Program-made: the position numbers and the translations under genes | Shown here: positions 44,410-52,767 of the stretch, piece after piece | How positions within the stretch are numbered: the first letter of the stretch is position 1 | Layout: each line of letters opens with the position of its first letter | Origin: Planctomycetota bacterium | GTDB lineage: Bacteria > Planctomycetota > UBA1135 > UBA2386 | Reading direction: 5' to 3' | NCBI GenBank assembly: GCA_965223545.1 | Contig: OZ245006.1 | Location: 6,080,001 to 6,144,000, forward strand | DNA length: 64,000 bases | Notes under the pieces: generated by a model | Told to the model about the DNA's origin: nothing | The model's input: the letters and a program-made list of their open reading frames with translations, nothing else | Databases searched by the model: none

Positions 44410-46859
44410 ATGATGGGCCGCATGGTGTTGAGTGCGTTGCCGCCGTCTGGCCGCGGCCGAGCCGGATCACTGGGGCAGGCGCTGCTGCTCGCCTCGATCG
44501 TTGGTTCCGCACCGGGACAAGAGAGTGCGCAGCAGCCCGCGACCGTGTCGTTGGTGGGGACCGTTGTCGACGAAGGCGGTGAACCCGTCGCTGGCGCCCA
44601 GGTGCGGCACGGACTTCGCCGAGAGTTTCGCACCGGCGTGGCGTTGCCGGCGGTGGTGGCGACCACCGACGCGAAGGGGCATTTTGTGGCGACCGTGCCG
44701 GCGGGGCCCGACGATCAGATGTCGCGCGTGCTGATTGCGGCCGAGGGCCGCGCCTCGTGGAGCCTGGAGCTGCTCCCGTCTCTGACGATGAGGCGGCAAG
44801 GGCATTCGCTGGATCTTCCCTCTGTGGTGTTGCCCCCCGGCTTCCGCCTCGCGGGGCGCGTACGCAATTCCGATGGGGAACCGGTCGCGGGCGCGCGGGT
44901 GATTGCGCGCGACCTGCTCGCCGGGCATGGCCTCCAGGGCTGTTGGTCTGTGGCGCGCACCGAGGGCGATGGGACGTTCGTGCTTGAGGGGGCGTGCGCC
45001 GATCGCATGGAGATCACCGTCGACGCCGCGGGCTTCTATCGTTGGGCGCGGCGGCCGATGGGAATCGGCGATCCGCTGGATCTGACGCTGTCCCGTGGTG
45101 GTGTCGTTCGCGGAACGCTGCGCGGTCGTGACGGCGAGCCGGTCGCAGGCCGAGTGGTGGTCCGTTACGAGGTCACCGGCTCCCTCCGCATGCCGCAGGA
45201 GATCGAAGTCCCTGCGAGCGGTGAGTTCGCGTTCAACGTCCAATACCCGTGCCGCTTTCGCGCCGTCGGGCTGCCGGAAGCCGGCGGTGAAGTCGCTGGA
45301 CCGATCTTGGACGGGCCCGTCCCGGAGCTGGGTTGCGGCTCGGCGCGGATGACGACTCGAGGCTCGCAGTGCAGGTCGTTGACGGCGACACCGGCGGGCT
45401 TCTGTCCTCGGCGCGGGCCATCGCCGGTTGGGGCCGGTGGGTCAGCGGTGAAACGCTCGACTGGATGTTCGACTCGCACGCGGTCCGCGGCGAGGCAGGG
45501 GTGGTGTTCGTCACCGGGCCCTCGGGTGGTGAGGGCGCGACGGGCGCGATTCTCGCCGGCGCGGATGGCTACGCGAGCAAGCTGGTAGAGGGAGTTGCTT
45601 GGCCGCAGGGCGATGCGCCGATCCGCATCGAGCTTGCGCGGGGCTCGGTGCTGCGCGGCGCCGTGCGGGACGTGGGCGGAGGAGGTGTCGCCGGTGTGCT
45701 GGTGACTCTGGCCTTGGGTGATTCGATGACCGGTTTGCCACGCGGCTGGCAACTGACCGGGTCGGTCGGCGAGTTCCAGTTTGATGGGTTGGCAGAGGGG
45801 GCGTACAAGCTGTACGCCGGCGCACCGTTCGCTGGTGTGGGCGGGATGCGCACGGTGGCACTGGGCGCGGGCGAGGAGCGCACCGAGGATATCGAGCTTC
45901 CGACCTTGGGAGAACTCGCCTGCACGATCCGAGGCCTGGGTGGCCTTCGGGGGGCTTCGGTGCTGGCTCAGCTCGACCTCCGGCAGCCGGTTGGACCGGC
46001 GTCGATGATGATGGCGAGCTTGGCCCGCTGGCTGAGTGAGTTCCCAGTCGGCGTCGACGGTCAGTTCGTAATGCCATTGCACCAGGAAGGTCGCTACCGG
46101 ATGAATCTGATGTTCGGTGCGGCGCCGCGCACGGGTGCTCCGCCGAGCATCCTGCTGGGAACCGTCACCACCGACGCGGAGCGATCCCCGGTGGTCTTCG
46201 ACGGTGCCCGCCTGGGTCGCGTGCACGGACGCGTCACGATCGAGGGGGCTGCGGTGCCGAGCGCCCGTTTGGTCGCACAGGCTCGTGCCGCGATCCAAGA
46301 GAGACCCGGCGATGGCACTCGCCCGGAAGGCGAGCTGCGATGGGCTGCGATCGAACCCGATGGTTCTTTCGAGCTCGAACTCGCACCCGGGCGGTTCCTG
46401 CTCGATCTGGTCGATGTCGGCACCGGTGTCATCCTGGGGTCGAGCCGGGTGATCAAGGTCCACTCCGGGCAACGCACCGAGGTCGAGCTCGAAGCCGCAG
46501 TGACGGAGCTGCACGTGAATCTCGTCCCGCCCGAAGGCGGTCGCCTCATCGCCGATCGGTTGGATGTCCAAACCGAGCGGCAGAAAGCGATCCTCGAGGC
46601 CCTGCGTTATCGCTCCCCCTTCGGCACCGCCTACGGCAGCCCCGGAGTCGACCTCGCCGACGGCGCCCCCCGACATCGAATCTACGTCCCCCCCGGACCC
46701 GTCCGCCTCCGACTCCAACCCGGCTCCTCCTCCCTCGGCGCCGGAGCCTACACAACGACGCTGCCCACCAATCTCGGCAGCATCGACCTCATCGCCCTCC
46801 CCGACTCACGCCAAACGATCGAGATCCAAGCACAGCCGCCACCAAAACTCGACGGCTGA
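44410..46859 (+). pseudogene. Secreted carboxypeptidase-regulatory-like repeat protein, frameshifted near 45331
   Basis: Repeated G-x-V-x-D/N-x-x-G-E-P-V-A-G-A units in ORF 44410..45588 continue in ORF 45333..46859 after a frame change. Confidence 0.65.
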
Positions 46860-46867
46860 CCCATCGC

Positions 46868-47087
46868 GCTCCCTCGGCCTCTGGATCGAGAGCTGGCGGG
46901 GCCGCCCGCAGCTCCATCACCATCAGCGCCGGTCCAAGACGAGGCACAGGGTGCGACCGACGCCGATGGTGACGGAGCTGCGGGCGGCGGTCCCGGTTCG
47001 TGGTGCGTGGATGTGCGGCCTGGATTGAAGGTCGCTGAATCAAGAGAGCGGGTTTCGTCCCGGAGTGGTGCGCACTCGCCTCAGCTC
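46868..47087 (+). repeat. 220-bp direct repeat, copy 1; contains a 34-bp-stem hairpin at 46901-46988
   Basis: Matches 49256-49475 at a constant offset of 2388 with about 4 substitutions. Confidence 0.92.
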
Positions 47088-47147
47088 CGTCACCGTCGGC
47101 GGCGGTCGCACCCCGTGCCTCGTCTTGGACCGCTGTCGTCGGTGATG
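47075..47147 (+). repeat. Inverted, diverged copy of the hairpin, interrupted by the intron; remainder at 49182-49194
   Basis: The 20-nt loop is the reverse complement of the copy-1 loop (1 mismatch). The right arm is completed by GTGGTGAGGCGAG after the intron. Confidence 0.85.
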
Positions 47148-49181
47148 TTGCGCCTGGCATGGGCGCAGAGTTGAAGATGAAAGTTCTTTATGGATCCGTA
47201 CTGGAGGAAACCATGAGTCGAAGGCAGCTGCACGAGGCAGAAAGGGGAGCCGTGTGCCGTCCGAGAGGGCGGTGCGCGGTGTTGATCCGGGATGCCAGGA
47301 CAGGACGGACACCGTGCCGTGCTGTTCCCGCGAGGTCGTGTGGGATGGAAGCCCTAGACGCAGCGCAGCACCGAGCGAAAGCGAAGTTCCGTAAGGCTCT
47401 CGAGGTCTGGGTCAGCGTGCCATCCAACGTGACGCCCGATATCCAGTCGCGACCTCGGAGTACTGGAACCGGCGGCGGCGCGAAACTCTGCGTTCTTACC
47501 CAGGGAGATCTCTGTGTGTCCGCTTCGAGCGGTAGGTGGGGAGGAGGCAACGACGACCCACCAAGGCATGCAGAGAAGTCGGATCACCCCGTAGTAGTGA
47601 TGAAGCCGGGTAATGCCGGTGGAGCGAAGGGGGTGACAGGATGAGAAAGCCGAAACCACGGCAACTGCAGTTCGCTTTCGCCGAGAGCCCGCAAGGGGAC
47701 GGCGTGGCCGGAAGGGCAGACGAATCTGCCACGAAGTCCACGTCGGTGCCTACGACGGATTGCAGCCATCGATCGGAATCGGCTCCACCGCCAGCGGACG
47801 GCTACTGCCATCTGCTGGAGCTGGTCGCGGAGCAGGGCAACCTGCGAAGCGCACTGGCACATGTCGTAAGCAAGAAGGGCGCCCCGGGCGTCGACGGACA
47901 GACGGTGTCAGAGGTTAAGCGTCATGCGAAACACCTGCTCCCGAAACTCCGCGATGCTCTGCTCATGGAGACCTACGCGCCCGGCGATATTCGTCGGGTG
48001 TGGATCCCGAAGCCCAGTGGTGGGCAGCGGGGTCTCGGGATTCCAACCGTGATCGACCGCTGGGTCCAACAGGCCGTGCGCCAGATTCTGGAGCCGATCT
48101 ACGACCCGACGTTCCACGACAGCAGCCACGGCTTCCGGCCGAGGCGGGGAGCCCACACAGCGATCGCCGAAGCAGCGGGTTACGTGAAGCAGGGTCGGCG
48201 GTACACGGTGGACATCGATTTGGAGAAGTTCTTCGACCGTGTCCATCACCAACGCCTCCTGGACCGGCTGGCTCAGAAGGTGAAGGACCGTCGGGTGCTG
48301 CGGATCATCCGCCTGATGCTGAAAGCGAACGTAGTTCTTCCAGATGGCACCCGCGTCGTCACGGAAGAAGGAACGCCCCAGGGCGGCCCGCTATCACCTC
48401 TGCTGTCCAACATCGTCCTGGACGAATTGGACTGGGAGTTGGAACGACGCGGGTTGCGTTTTGTGCGCTACGCCGACGACTGCAATATCTACGTCGGTAG
48501 CGAGCGCTCAGGACACCGGGTCATGGCTTCGATTCGCAGGTTCATCGAACGTCGCGTGCGACTGAAAGTGAACGAAGCGAAGAGTTCCGTCGACCTGGCC
48601 CATCGCCGGCACTTCCTCGGGTTTCGCGTAGGCGCAACTCGAAAGGGCTGGCTGACGGTGCAGTTGTCCCGTCGCACTCTGGATCGCATCGACGCCCGAA
48701 TCCGTGAGCTTACGCCGCGGTCCTGGGGTGGTCGGATGTCCTGGTGCATCGAACGACTGAACCGTTACCTCCGTGGTTGGATCGGCTACTTCCAGCTGAT
48801 CACGAAGGCCGCGTGGCGGACCTTGCGGAATCTCGATGGCCATATTCGACGACGCCTGCGGGCGATCATCATTCGGCAGAAGAAGAGACCGCGATACCTC
48901 TTCCGAGACCTTGTCGCCCGTGGGTGCAGCTGGCAGTCGGCTGCACGCACCGCGTTTGGCCGGCGTGGCACGTGGTGGCAGAGCAACTCGGGAGCGATCA
49001 AACGCGCTTATCCCAATCAGTGGTTTGCTGAGCGGCTGGTGTCGCTCTCCAAGCTCTGGGACGAGCGCCGCTACGACTGGCGGCCCCCTTTGGGGGATAC
49101 CGTCCTGAAGAGCCGGATGTGTGACCCACAAGTCCGGTTCTGTGAGAGCTGCGGGGGGGCAACCCCCCGCGGCTACTCGGC
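47148..49181 (+). mobile_element. Group II intron (En-less, class C-like)
   Basis: 5' end TTGCGCCTGGCATGGGCG; RT ORF; domain V GAGCCGGATGTGTGACCCACAAGTCCGGTTC (49110-49140); domain VI with a bulged A at 49175. Removal restores the host hairpin. Confidence 0.9.
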
Positions 49182-49188
49182 GTGGTGA
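47641..49188 (+). CDS. ltrA: Group II intron reverse transcriptase/maturase
   Basis: GAPGVDG, IPKPSGGQRGLGIP, HGFRP, DLEKFFD, GTPQGGPLSP, RYADD, FLGF and LRGWIGYF (domain X). No HNH domain. Confidence 0.95.
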   Translation: MRKPKPRQLQFAFAESPQGDGVAGRADESATKSTSVPTTDCSHRSESAPPPADGYCHLLELVAEQGNLRSALAHVVSKKGAPGVDGQTVSEVKRHAKHLLPKLRDALLMETYAPGDIRRVWIPKPSGGQRGLGIPTVIDRWVQQAVRQILEPIYDPTFHDSSHGFRPRRGAHTAIAEAAGYVKQGRRYTVDIDLEKFFDRVHHQRLLDRLAQKVKDRRVLRIIRLMLKANVVLPDGTRVVTEEGTPQGGPLSPLLSNIVLDELDWELERRGLRFVRYADDCNIYVGSERSGHRVMASIRRFIERRVRLKVNEAKSSVDLAHRRHFLGFRVGATRKGWLTVQLSRRTLDRIDARIRELTPRSWGGRMSWCIERLNRYLRGWIGYFQLITKAAWRTLRNLDGHIRRRLRAIIIRQKKRPRYLFRDLVARGCSWQSAARTAFGRRGTWWQSNSGAIKRAYPNQWFAERLVSLSKLWDERRYDWRPPLGDTVLKSRMCDPQVRFCESCGGATPRGYSAW

Positions 49189-49255
49189 GGCGAGCCTTCA
49201 GCTCTGGAGCTGGAGGTTGGTGGGAGCCGTTGAGCCCGGGGGATGCGTAGGGCGT

Positions 49256-49475
49256 GCTCCCTCGGCCTCTGGATCGAGAGCTAGCGGGGCCGCCCGCAGC
49301 TCCATCACCATCAGCGCCGGTCCAAGACGAGGCACAGGGTGCGACCGACGCCGATGGTGACGGAGCTGCGGGCGGCGGTCCCGGTTCGTGGTGCGTGGAT
49401 GTGCGGCCTGGAGTGAAGATCGCTGAATCAAGAGAGCGGGTTTCGTCACGGAGTGGTGCGCACTCGCCTCAGCTC
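49256..49475 (+). repeat. 220-bp direct repeat, copy 2, with hairpin
   Basis: Near-identical to 46868-47087. Confidence 0.92.
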
Positions 49476-49587
49476 TGGAGTCGAGATTGTTGGGAGCAGG
49501 GTAGCGTGCGATTCGCCGGCCGCTTTCGCAGATTCCTTGTCGGATTCTTGCATGTTGACTCCCTCTTTAGTAAGGTCGCTAATTCAA

Positions 49588-50286
49588 ATGACGAGCAAGG
49601 CAGTTCGATCCCGGCGCGGTGGACGGCGCCGTGGGGTGGTGCAGGGTGAGCTGCCGTTTCGGCAGTGGGGTGGGGCTCGGGAGGGGGCTGGGCGGCCAAA
49701 GGTGAGTGATGAGACGGTGCCGCACTTGGCGCGGGGGGCGTTGGTGGCGCGGTATCCGTTGCACTTGACGGTGCGGTTGTGTCGGGGGTTGCCGGGCTTA
49801 CGGAATGCGCGGACGTACTGGATGTTGGTGGAGCGGATCCGGGCGGGGTGTGGGCGGTTCGGGTTTCGGTTGGTGGAGTTCTCGGTGCAGCGCGATCACT
49901 TGCACCTTCTGGTCGAGGCGAAGGACCGGGAGGCGTTGACGCGGGGGATGACCGGGCTGTTGGTGCGGATGGCGCGGGGGTTGAACAAGCTGTGGGGGCG
50001 CTCGGGGCGGGTGTTTGCCGAGCGGTTTCACGAGCGGGTGCTGCGCTCGCCGACGGAGGTGCGGCGGGCGTTGGTGTATGTGCTGCAGAATGCTTGGCAC
50101 CACCGGCAGCGGCCGCGGCAGCTGATCGACGTCTACTCGTCGGGGCCCTGGTTCGACGGGTGGCGCGAGGGGGTGGAGCTGTCGGAGCCGGTGGCGCGGC
50201 CGACGGTGCGGGCGCGGACTTGGCTGCTGAAGGGCGGGTGGCGGCGGTCGCGGGGGCGGTTGGACTTCCGCGAGCGGCCGGCGTAG
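49588..50286 (+). CDS. Y1/HUH transposase (IS200/RAYT-like TnpA)
   Basis: LHLTVR, FSVQRDHLHLLVEA (HUH), VFAERFH and VYVLQN (catalytic Tyr). No adjacent tnpB. Confidence 0.82.
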   Translation: MTSKAVRSRRGGRRRGVVQGELPFRQWGGAREGAGRPKVSDETVPHLARGALVARYPLHLTVRLCRGLPGLRNARTYWMLVERIRAGCGRFGFRLVEFSVQRDHLHLLVEAKDREALTRGMTGLLVRMARGLNKLWGRSGRVFAERFHERVLRSPTEVRRALVYVLQNAWHHRQRPRQLIDVYSSGPWFDGWREGVELSEPVARPTVRARTWLLKGGWRRSRGRLDFRERPA

Positions 50287-50427
50287 CAGCGGAGTTGAGG
50301 CCACCCCTGCGAAGGGATTCTGTGGGGCGCAAATGGGAGTGGGCCGGAGAATCCTGCGAGGTCGTTGAACCGGTTTGTTGCGTTGCGGGCAGGAGTTGGT
50401 GGGGTGCCGATGAGAAAGGGGTAGGGC

Positions 50428-52767
50428 GTGATGCAGAACGACGAGCGGCGGGATTGGTTGCGGCAGCTGGCGGTGACACTGGCGCGGGGCGCGAGCGATG
50501 AAGTTGGCCAGCGGGTTTGGTTGACCGCTCTCGAGCAGGGGCGGTCCGGGGTGGCGCGGCCCGCGGCCTGGTGGCGCGGGGTGGCGCGCAATCATGCGCG
50601 CCGGGTCCGGCGGGAGCGGTTGCGTCGCAGCGCGCGCGAGCGCGCCGCGGCGGTCGCTGCGAGCAGTCCGTCGGCGCTGGCGGTGGTCGAACGCGACGAG
50701 GTCGCCGGTCGGTTGGCGGCGGCCGTGCGTTCGCTGGATGAGCCGTATCGCGTCGTCGTTGAGGCGCGCTTCTTCGAGGGGCTGGCTCCGCGGAGCATCG
50801 CCGCGCGGCTCGGGGTGCCGGTGGAGACCGTGCGCACCCGGCTCAAGCGAGCGCTGGCGCAGCTGCGCGCTCGGCTCGATCGCGCTCCCGGTGGCCGTGA
50901 GGCTTGGCTTGCCGCGGTGGCGTGGTCGGCACGCCGTAGCAGGGTCGCCGGGTCGGCGCGTCTGGTGGCAGCCTCCACGGTGGCGGGTGGCGCGGCGCTG
51001 GCGTACTTGGCCGGTGTGGTGGCGGCGCCGGAGCCGCAGTGGGGCCCGGCGGCGGTGGAGAAGGCGGCCGAGGCGCAGGTGGCGGCGCCCATGAATGCCG
51101 CCACTGCCGATCGCGAGCCAGTCTCGGTCCGCGCGCGGCGTCGCGCCGTCACGGCGCACGCTGCAGGTGTGTTCGACGCGGGCGCCGGCACCGGGACGCA
51201 CGTCACAGCGACCACCGTTCTCGAGCACGCGGCCGCGGTGGCGACGGCCGCGGTCATGCGCGACCTCGCGGTCGCCCAGCGAGCCGTCGTCGCGCGGACG
51301 GCGATCGACGAAGACGGTGATCGGATTGGCGAGTTTGCCTACCTCGCCGAGCTGCTCGGCGGAGGTCGCGTGGCGGACGGCCGCCGGCCGGCATTGCGGC
51401 ACGCACTTGGGCCGGTGCGCGAGGGCGTCAGCATCTACGGCGACTACTGCGTCCGCGTTTGGCTGCCGGGTGTCGATGCGCGGCCACTTGCCGAGGCCGC
51501 GGAGGGCGGGGTTGGCTACGAGGCGCCGGTGCCCGACCTTGCCGAGCAATGGTGGTGCGCCTATGCCTGGCCGCGCAGCCCGAAGATCGGCGGCGCGGTC
51601 CTGTTCATCAACCAAGACGGGCAGCTGTTGGCGACGCCGAACGCCAACCGGCGCTACGCCGGTCTCGGACGGGGGCCGCGGCCCGAGGCTGCCTATGCCT
51701 GGGGTGCGCGTGGCATCGACCGTGGCACCGCAGTGCGGGCAATCGACGGGCGCAGCGTCGACGGTGAGCGGTGGTTGCCGGTGCACGTGGGGCAGCGAGA
51801 CTTGGTGCTGCACGTGCGCAGAGCCGATGGTGCGGTCGCCGGTGATGTGCGGGTCACTGTGGCGCCACCGCAGGCGGCACGGGTGTTCGGCGACGCGGAG
51901 GTGGCGCGCCTGCGCGCGCACCGGGACGACATCGCCGCCTTGGCGCAGAGTGGTTGCCGGCTGCCGTTGGCGTCCGGCGTGACCGGCGTCGACGGCAGCG
52001 TGCGGTTGCGTGGTGCCCCGGTGGTCGACGCCGTGATCGTCTTGACCACGCGTCTGGGCGGCGTCGTTCCGGCGCGAATCGAGATGAAGGATGGCGCGCT
52101 CATCGCGCACCTCGCCGCCGACGTGGCGGACGTCGCGGCCGCGCGTCGCGATGCAAACGAGGCCGCGGCGATCGCCACGCTGCGCAACTTGGCTTCCGCG
52201 CAGGCGCAGTGCCGCGCATCGGGGGCATTGGACACCGACGGCGACGGCAAAGGGGAGTTCGGCTACCTGGCGGAGATGGCGGGGAGTGCGCAGCGCCACG
52301 GGCGCGGTGGAGTTCTGCTGCAGCGGATCTCGCCGCCGTTCTTGTCGGCCGGCTTCGCTGCCTTCGATCCCGAGCAACCCGCCGCGATCGGCGTGCAGCG
52401 CAGCGGCTATTGCTTTGCGGTTTTCTTGCCCGATGCGTTCGGCCTGCCGCTCGCCGAGGCGAGTGCCGGCGGCTGTGGCGGGGTGGTTCCTGATGCCGCC
52501 GCCGGCGCGCGGTGGTGGTGTGCCTATGCCTGGCCGGTCTCGCTGGACCGCAGCGGCGGCCGCACGTTCTTCATCGATCAGGAAGGCGACGTGCTCGCCG
52601 CCGACAACGCGCGCACGCGGTACAGCGGTTGGCTGCGTCCACCGGCGCCCGATGCGGCCCGCGCCGCCGATGGCGACGGGCGGCTCTCGTCGCCTTCGGC
52701 GGTGCAGGCGGCGGCAGGGGCGGAGGCACCCGGTCGCGACCGCCAGCTTTGGCGGCCGGCCTTCTAG
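50428..52767 (+). CDS. ECF sigma factor fused via a TM segment to two repeated pilin/DUF2950-like domains
   Basis: Region 4 SIAARLGVPVETVRTRLKRA; hydrophobic segment; two copies of D.DGD..GEF.YLAE...WWCAYAWP...F.I.Q.G. Confidence 0.72.
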   Translation: MMQNDERRDWLRQLAVTLARGASDEVGQRVWLTALEQGRSGVARPAAWWRGVARNHARRVRRERLRRSARERAAAVAASSPSALAVVERDEVAGRLAAAVRSLDEPYRVVVEARFFEGLAPRSIAARLGVPVETVRTRLKRALAQLRARLDRAPGGREAWLAAVAWSARRSRVAGSARLVAASTVAGGAALAYLAGVVAAPEPQWGPAAVEKAAEAQVAAPMNAATADREPVSVRARRRAVTAHAAGVFDAGAGTGTHVTATTVLEHAAAVATAAVMRDLAVAQRAVVARTAIDEDGDRIGEFAYLAELLGGGRVADGRRPALRHALGPVREGVSIYGDYCVRVWLPGVDARPLAEAAEGGVGYEAPVPDLAEQWWCAYAWPRSPKIGGAVLFINQDGQLLATPNANRRYAGLGRGPRPEAAYAWGARGIDRGTAVRAIDGRSVDGERWLPVHVGQRDLVLHVRRADGAVAGDVRVTVAPPQAARVFGDAEVARLRAHRDDIAALAQSGCRLPLASGVTGVDGSVRLRGAPVVDAVIVLTTRLGGVVPARIEMKDGALIAHLAADVADVAAARRDANEAAAIATLRNLASAQAQCRASGALDTDGDGKGEFGYLAEMAGSAQRHGRGGVLLQRISPPFLSAGFAAFDPEQPAAIGVQRSGYCFAVFLPDAFGLPLAEASAGGCGGVVPDAAAGARWWCAYAWPVSLDRSGGRTFFIDQEGDVLAADNARTRYSGWLRPPAPDAARAADGDGRLSSPSAVQAAAGAEAPGRDRQLWRPAF

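What the first reader, a model, noticed from the sequence alone, without database searches (positions are those of the whole stretch)
47075..49194. Group II intron inserted inside the stem of a REP-like hairpin beside a RAYT-like transposase
Seen: excising 47148-49181 joins ...GGTGATG|GTGGTGAGGCGAG and rebuilds a 33-bp-stem, 20-nt-loop hairpin of the same family as two intact neighbours (46901-46988 and its copy near 49289-49376). A loop CATC at 47421-47424 inside the intron is complementary to the last exon bases GATG (candidate EBS1/IBS1). Known: class IIC introns use a short IBS1 plus a DNA stem-loop (terminators, attC sites). Inference: this lineage may home into hairpins dispersed by a Y1 transposase, exploiting a self-renewing target. 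The intact hairpins carry an equivalent GGTGATG|G site on the minus strand.
Basis: partly seen in the sequence, partly recalled or inferred. Interest (0 to 1): 0.8.

Follow-up and report, generated by a model that had tools for sequence, protein, structure and literature searches.

The report
Intron that homes into repeat hairpins
A self-splicing mobile intron has recently copied itself 14 times in this bacterium, almost always into one arm of a DNA hairpin that other mobile elements carry, and its relatives also tend to land in repeated hairpins rather than after gene terminators.

Summary
Observation confirmed. The 2,034-nt intron (47148-49181) splits a 33-position stem with a 20-nt loop.

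The genome holds 14 copies, 99.4-100% identical:
- 11 lie in hairpin arrays upstream of a 12-copy Y1 transposase gene.
- 2 lie in the same hairpin family inside an ISL3 end.
- 1 is ectopic, in a sulfatase gene.

All 13 hairpin insertions are in the 3' arm, on one strand, after GRTG.

The RT is class C but belongs to a distinct clade (SH-like 99) with an AGC rather than CGC catalytic triad. Its 5' exons mostly lack terminator T-tracts. EBS1 co-varies with the exon across 20 introns (73 of 80 pairs; 0 of 20,000 shuffles). Relatives in four other genomes also sit in multicopy palindromes, one beside a true RAYT; one further genome is a counterexample.

Corrections: the Y1 gene is not a canonical RAYT, the hairpins are not free REPs, and 'self-renewing target' is not shown, because the Y1 copies spread before the intron did.

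Verdict: a new variant of hairpin-targeting group IIC introns.

The parts
47148..49181 (+). Group II intron, class C IEP, AGC-triad clade; one of 14 genomic copies
47075..47147 (+). Target hairpin (type A): 5' arm 47075-47107, loop 47108-47127, upper 3' arm 47128-47147
49182..49194 (+). Lower 3' arm of the target hairpin (3' exon); 49182 = IBS3 (G)
47144..47147 (+). IBS1 (GATG); paired in the empty hairpin with one G·T wobble
47205..47209 (+). AGGAA motif of the IIC epsilon' region
   Evidence: sequence; feature described in PMC1702495
47421..47424 (+). EBS1 (CATC) in the d3 loop
47450..47450 (+). Probable EBS3 (C), last unpaired base of the coordination loop; pairs with +1 G in 12 of 14 sites
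   Evidence: inferred by eye; not formally tested
47581..47583 (+). J2/3 linker GGA, matching the AGC triad
47641..49188 (+). RT/maturase ORF, no endonuclease domain; +1 C variant (488 aa in 12 of 14 copies)
49110..49140 (+). Domain V, 31 nt, AGC triad, short distal stem
49175..49175 (+). Bulged branch-point A of domain VI
46901..46988 (-). Empty type B hairpin of the same family, usable site on the minus strand
49289..49376 (-). Second empty type B hairpin
46865..47087 (+). Array repeat unit, copy 1 (223 nt)
49253..49475 (+). Array repeat unit, copy 2 (98% identical)
49548..49576 (+). Conserved TTGCRY-17 nt-TAAGGY promoter-like motif just upstream of all 13 Y1 copies; the sigma-70 consensus scan did not score it
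49588..50286 (+). Y1 (HUH) transposase-like gene, 232 aa; 12 full copies plus 1 partial in the genome

Best explanation
This is a recently active, endonuclease-less class C intron from a side-lineage that retrohomes into palindromic repeat DNA instead of after terminators. The excised RNA-maturase complex meets the hairpin when it is single-stranded, probably at the replication fork (inferred). It recognises the stem by shape (inferred from IIC precedent). It pairs EBS1 CAUC with a GRTG in the hairpin's 3' arm, 14-20 nt from the loop, and EBS3 with the next G, opening the lower stem. It then reverse-splices and is copied by its RT. Sites and EBS1/IBS1 pairing are shown from sequence; the steps are inferred. 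In this genome the commonest such hairpin is the upstream structure of a multicopy Y1 element, also found in an ISL3 end. The intron has filled half of these pre-existing hairpins by independent homing.
For: 13 of 14 copies are in the 3' arm of one hairpin family, although only 70 of 98,621 GRTG|R motifs on C1 lie there. There are six site classes in three hairpin types. 13 of 26 hairpins are occupied, and the empty ones give the pre-insertion state. Introns are 99.4-100% identical and Y1 copies 92.3-97.7%, so insertions postdate Y1 spread. EBS1/IBS1 positions -1 to -3 pair in 20 of 20 introns with 17 different EBS1s; 73 of 80 pairs against a permutation mean of 39. T-run of 3 or more before the site: 5 of 33 clade sites versus 63 of 76 CGC-triad sites. 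G282: 3 of 3 copies lie just 3' of GTAG-footed hairpins, two of them in a 67-match family, with a RAYT above cut-off beside one array. G015: 3 of 3 intron 3' ends run into a 42-match repeat. G437: 2 of 3 run into a 31-match repeat. For both, empty copies place the site in a 3' arm. G448: 6 of 10 sites with a 5' flank carry a palindrome with 167 matches versus 75 for the control.
Against: One copy here is in a sulfatase gene with no clear hairpin. In G392 the one 5' exon tested is single-copy, and the L034, L041 and L125 sites are in or beside coding or IS sequence. After shuffling 3' exons, 'inside the stem' is only a modest clade-wide trend (mean pairing 0.49 vs 0.34; 5 of 29 sites in the top rank). 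Lagging-template preference is weak (9 of 13 vs 4 of 13 hairpins, one-sided p = 0.058). The T-run comparison is not controlled for host GC or for multicopy sites. The tree is FastTree only and lacks a IIC-attC reference. There is no splicing or homing data.
Confidence: 0.75

Rival explanations
1. An ordinary IIC intron in a GC-rich genome: it takes any strong stem with a nearby GRTG, and the Y1 arrays are simply the best stems on offer. There is no lineage-level specialisation.
For: IIC introns are described as inserting after terminators 'or other inverted repeats' (PMC1702495). There is one ectopic site here. G448 uses several unrelated palindromes. G392 has a single-copy site.
Against: The clade is separable by RT, triad and J2/3. 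CGC-triad introns from GC-rich hosts in the same data still follow T-tracts. 13 of 14 sites are in one family.
Confidence: 0.3
2. Sequence-specific homing: the maturase reads the primary sequence of this repeat (loop and arm); hairpin structure is incidental, as for RmInt2 in ISRm17 inverted repeats.
For: All 13 sites share an arm-and-loop sequence and one strand. At register 20 only the used strand offers GATG|G.
Against: Three registers (14, 17, 20 nt), two loop lengths and three arm variants are used. Relatives use unrelated palindromes with changed EBS1.
Confidence: 0.15
3. One reading: the intron rides a target that the Y1 transposase keeps multiplying, by co-transposition or continual renewal.
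For: The hairpin accompanies Y1 genes in three genera. Arrays are locally tandem-amplified. The two ISL3-borne copies share intron haplotype and site, consistent with one ride on an IS.
Against: No two Y1 copies exceed 97.7% identity, while the introns are at least 99.4% identical. Registers and orientations differ between arrays. No PF01797 match was found in G448 or G015, which hold the clade.
Confidence: 0.15

Closest known systems
Group IIC / bacterial class C introns (GsI-IIC, B.h.I1, O.i.I1)
   Same: RT-maturase without endonuclease (best PDB match GsI-IIC RT, 403 bits). 3-4 bp IBS1, short DV, AGGAA motif, stem-loop at the target, multicopy spread. Two members of the same clade are listed as class C in the Miura 2022 supplement.
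   Different: AGC triad with RGA J2/3 instead of CGC with AGC. No U-tract. In this genome IBS1 lies inside a 33-bp stem. EBS1 is highly variable across the clade.
IIC-attC introns (S.ma.I2 lineage)
   Same: One-strand insertion 'directly after or into' an imperfect DNA stem-loop that belongs to another mobile system (PMC7923331).
   Different: The target is not attC, and the site is GRTG|R, not TTGT/T. Relationship by tree was not tested.
RmInt2 (class D) in ISRm17 inverted repeats
   Same: An intron colonises both orientations of a repeat carried by an IS (PMC5894124).
   Different: Class D with long EBS pairings; the target is a terminal IR of a DDE IS, not a hairpin arm.
REP-targeting insertion sequences (IS621, IS1397, ISPpu9/10)
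   Same: Mobile elements specialised on repeated palindromes. The same table lists a P. putida group II intron at REPs in 2 of 9 copies (PMC1525189).
   Different: Those are DNA transposases. Here it is a retroelement at 13 of 14 copies.
TnpA-REP / RAYT and IS200 Y1 transposases
   Same: HUH-Y1 core with neighbouring hairpin arrays in alternating orientation.
   Different: Below the RAYT cut-off; motifs DHLH / FAERFH / YVLQNA fit none of the subclasses tabulated in PMC6006769; high copy number; fixed right boundary at the stop codon, ragged left array.

Membership tests
Group IIC / class C intron | IEP groups with class C and has no endonuclease domain | tested here: met
   clade relatives listed as C in PMC8919778 supplement
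Group IIC / class C intron | Short (3-4 bp) EBS1-IBS1 pairing | tested here: met
   positions -1 to -3 pair in 20 of 20 introns, -4 in 13 of 20
Group IIC / class C intron | No EBS2-IBS2 | tested here: inconclusive
   No candidate seen in the fold; not tested by covariation
Group IIC / class C intron | Shortened DV distal stem and AGGAA epsilon' motif | tested here: met
   features from PMC1702495
Group IIC / class C intron | CGC catalytic triad | tested here: not met
   AGC at 49111-49113; J2/3 is RGA in 16 of 21 scored clade introns, and AGC in 70 of 94 scored CGC introns
Group IIC / class C intron | Stem-loop at the 5' exon | tested here: met
   13 of 14 copies
Group IIC / class C intron | Insertion after a rho-independent terminator (U-tract) | tested here: not met
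   No T-tract at any of 14 sites; no plus-strand terminator in 46700-50500
IIC-attC lineage | TTGT/T site in an attC bottom strand | tested here: not met
   Sites are GRTG|R in Y1 and ISL3 hairpins
IIC-attC lineage | Monophyly with S.ma.I2-type IEPs | not tested
   No identified attC intron was retrieved
RAYT / REPtron | HUH-Y1 domain | tested here: met
   PF01797 25.8 bits, cut-off 23
RAYT / REPtron | NF047646 cut-off; WQ and Y---NP motifs | tested here: not met
   35.3 bits against 80; motifs compared with the table
RAYT / REPtron | Low copy number of the gene | tested here: not met
   12 full copies at 92-98%; up to 47 matches in relatives
RAYT / REPtron | GTAG/GTGG foot 0-2 nt 5' of the hairpin | tested here: not met
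   Feet of the window hairpins on both strands
RAYT / REPtron | Repeats dispersed genome-wide away from the gene | tested here: not met
   23 of 26 intact hairpins in Y1 arrays, 3 in ISL3 ends
RAYT / REPtron | Transposase cleaves its cognate hairpin | not testable with these tools
   Needs a biochemical assay

The most novel reading that the evidence does not exclude
An unrecognised sister lineage of class C introns, marked by an AGC triad and RGA J2/3, is specialised on the palindromes of other mobile DNA (REPs, REPIN-like arrays, IS end hairpins). It re-tunes a 4-nt EBS1 to each host's repeat, invades the stem arm by strand displacement, and by splitting those hairpins acts as a parasite and brake on Y1 elements.
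Probability: 0.45. Interest if true: 0.75.

Novelty: new variant of a known kind. Interest (0 to 1): 0.6.

Why it matters
IIC introns are usually described as terminator-targeting, with attC introns as the one special lineage. A third mode, aimed at repeated palindromes and with 17 natural EBS1 variants, gives a ready series for asking how much of IIC target choice is hairpin shape and how much is sequence. It also shows one retroelement colonising the hairpins of a Y1 element and an ISL3. The co-change of triad and J2/3 is a natural test of the catalytic triplex, which was solved in CGC introns (recalled). The host Y1 family, multicopy and fitting no tabulated subclass, is worth describing in its own right.

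Tried and rejected
- Co-transposition with the Y1 element as the main route of spread: rejected by the identity contrast. It remains possible for the two ISL3 copies.
- Calling the gene a RAYT and the hairpins REPs: rejected.
- 'All clade members insert inside a stem': the raw count (21 of 29 vs 11 of 62) largely fell away under a shuffle control.
- The clade as one of Miura's U1/U2/g6 groups: the two members looked up are listed as C.
- A maximum-likelihood tree of 175 rows did not finish. FastTree was used on subsets: 91 of 179 rows and 83 rows.
- Plasmid searches gave no identifiable IIC-attC reference. The phage search gave only distant RTs (best row listed 46.5%).
- Sequencing runs: no RNA holder listed. 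The one RNA run laid gave 0 reads, which is no test. DNA contigs showed the intron and Y1 pieces but no empty-site joint and no spanning piece.
- Y1 genes near clade introns: this Y1 family was found by tblastn beside no clade intron outside G000. Among 52 neighbouring ORFs scanned, one was Y1.
- Look-ups of earlier findings by place and by sequence returned nothing.

Full report
1. Observation. The intron runs 47148-49181. It has an Rfam D1-D4-3 match, an RT/maturase above the TIGR04416 cut-off, and folded DV and DVI with a bulged A at 49175. Removing it rebuilds a hairpin of 33 arm positions (27 Watson-Crick, 3 G·T, 3 mismatched) with a 20-nt loop. Two intact family members flank it in the opposite orientation. 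Six intron-free matches to the rejoined site exist elsewhere in the genome.

2. Genome census. There are 14 full copies at 99.4-100% identity. After removing them, 26 intact family hairpins remain, plus one degenerate: 13 type A, 10 type B and 3 type C. Of these, 7, 4 and 2 carry an intron (three weak BLAST rows without a hairpin were left out). Types A and B form arrays upstream of a Y1 gene with 12 full copies and one partial. Eight of the ten Y1 loci with a complete hairpin hold at least one intron; the three without one hold none. Type C lies in the left end of an ISL3 (Pfam), present in three near-identical copies. The fourteenth intron is antisense in a sulfatase gene.

3. Site rule. The last exon bases are GATG (9) or GGTG (5), and the next base is G (12) or A (2). 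Hairpin sites lie 20 (8), 17 (4) or 14 (1) nt from the loop, always in the 3' arm and always on the same strand of the family. Only 70 of 98,621 GRTG|R motifs on C1 lie in those arms. The other strand offers 39 such motifs and none is used. It folds 2.7-8.5 kcal/mol worse in all 26 hairpins, but it also lacks the GATG|G at register 20, so folding and site quality cannot be separated here. GC skew puts the origin near 4.0 Mb. Hairpins oriented as lagging-strand template are occupied 9 of 13 times against 4 of 13 (p = 0.058 one-sided): suggestive only.

4. Timing. Y1 copies are 92.3-97.7% identical, with mostly synonymous differences. The introns are far younger, so they reached the arrays by separate homing events after the Y1 element had spread. 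The two ISL3 insertions share site and intron haplotype and may be one event carried by the IS. A target renewed on the intron's timescale is not shown.

5. Lineage. Relatives from genomes, metagenomes and plasmids place the RT in a clade of 32 rows with SH-like support 99. It branches from the same open fork as the CGC-triad class C groups (FastTree, 83 rows, a subset; no attC reference). The members whose DV could be read have an AGC triad. The J2/3 linker changes with it: RGA in 16 of 21 scored clade introns, AGC in 70 of 94 scored CGC introns (22 and 142 loci examined). Toor 2006 gives CGC as a IIC hallmark. Two clade members are listed simply as class C in the Miura 2022 supplement.

6. 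EBS1. A motif locator gave one candidate in 22 of 26 rows, and an alignment of 15 confirmed the position. I designed the locator after seeing some sequences. Two near-duplicate rows were dropped, and for G392 I used the better-matching of its two sites (the other mismatches at -1). In the remaining 20 introns, with 17 distinct EBS1s, positions -1 to -3 pair in all and -4 in 13; no permutation of 20,000 came close.

7. Targets of relatives. T-runs precede 5 of 33 clade sites and 63 of 76 CGC sites (multicopy sites included, host GC not matched).
- G282: two copies lie 3 nt after a GTAG-footed hairpin with 67 matches, one of them in an array beside a RAYT above cut-off; the third follows a different GTAG hairpin.
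- G015 and G437: only intron 3' ends are assembled. 3 of 3 and 2 of 3 run into repeats with 42 and 31 matches, and empty copies put the site in a 3' arm.
- G448: 11 copies use several palindromic repeats; 6 of 10 with a 5' flank carry one motif. No Y1 match was found there or in G015.
- Against: the G392 site tested is unique, some sites are in or beside coding or IS sequence, G180 was not tested, and in-stem insertion across the clade is only a modest trend once controlled.

8. The host element. The Y1 protein passes Pfam but not the RAYT model and matches no subclass signature tabulated by Quentin 2018. Similarity between copies ends at the stop codon; the upstream array is ragged and locally repeated. 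Homologues were found in 21 of 61 genomes searched, often multicopy. The same hairpin family lies upstream of homologues in G017 and G011, while many other homologue loci lack it. It behaves like an IS with an upstream hairpin, not a domesticated RAYT. That the transposase acts on the hairpin is inferred, not shown.

9. Mechanism. Shown: boundaries, copy number, site rule, strand, EBS1/IBS1 covariation, order of events. Inferred: single-stranded target at the fork, shape recognition of the upper stem, opening of the lower stem, priming by a nascent strand, and any effect on Y1 mobility. With no U-tract before the site, read-through from the upstream gene could transcribe the intron, unlike terminator-bound IIC introns; this is untested.

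10. Literature. What I saw of each paper:
- Passages: PMC7923331, PMC4424553, PMC5894124, PMC1702495, PMC4748821, PMC12584367, PMC3733652, PMC1525189.
- Passages plus named sections: PMC6006769 (section 12 and the first part of 15) and PMC3001079 (section 14).
- First two of four parts: PMC3552965.
- Abstract and outline: PMC4615759.
- Passages plus supplement rows: PMC8919778.
Nine searches found no description of an AGC-triad class C lineage or of one specialised on REP-like hairpins. The nearest are the attC lineage, RmInt2, and a 2-of-9 P. putida entry. Subscription papers and the intron database were not available and may cover this.

11. Verdict. Real, and wider than first read: a new variant of hairpin-targeting IIC introns. 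Interest 0.6.

Noticed in passing
L288 (G040:C1:608500-615000): A non-class-C group II intron sits in the repeat upstream of a homologous Y1 gene, at a site present empty in other G040 copies: a second intron lineage using this Y1 family's upstream region. L015 (G047) also holds both an RT and a Y1 homologue.
   Followed up: partly
window 46865-49500 and the other Y1 arrays: Array units occur with or without their hairpin, and the deletions appear to run between AGCT words flanking each hairpin: precise gain or loss, perhaps by the Y1 enzyme or by slippage (seen by eye).
   Followed up: no
L299 (G000:C1:2606600-2608700): An ISL3 left end carries the same hairpin family as the Y1 arrays (about 75% over 118 nt), implying exchange between unrelated IS types.
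   Followed up: partly
window 49079-49084: An extra C in 2 of 14 intron copies extends the RT ORF through DV and DVI; real variant or homopolymer error.
   Followed up: partly
window 44410-46859: The upstream carboxypeptidase-regulatory-domain gene appears split over two overlapping frames (44410-45588 and 45333-46859).
   Followed up: no
L316 and L310 (G015): A long GC-rich repeat occurs as inverted pairs about 600 nt apart, at least 40 copies, with no Y1 match found in that genome; mobiliser unknown.
   Followed up: partly
G448:C6:15723-16587 and C8:379133-383850: Tandem 80-nt palindrome arrays; one carries two intron copies in neighbouring units.
   Followed up: partly
L254, L255: Rhizobiales and Novosphingobium plasmid members of the clade have IBS1 = GTAG; one lies just upstream of an IS21.
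   Followed up: no
G000:C1:1729907 and 3914571: Two further, unrelated Y1 matches and one distant RT (C1:4530834) in the genome.
   Followed up: no
G000:C1:6350460-6357067: Three intron copies within one Y1 array, two on one strand and one on the other.
   Followed up: yes
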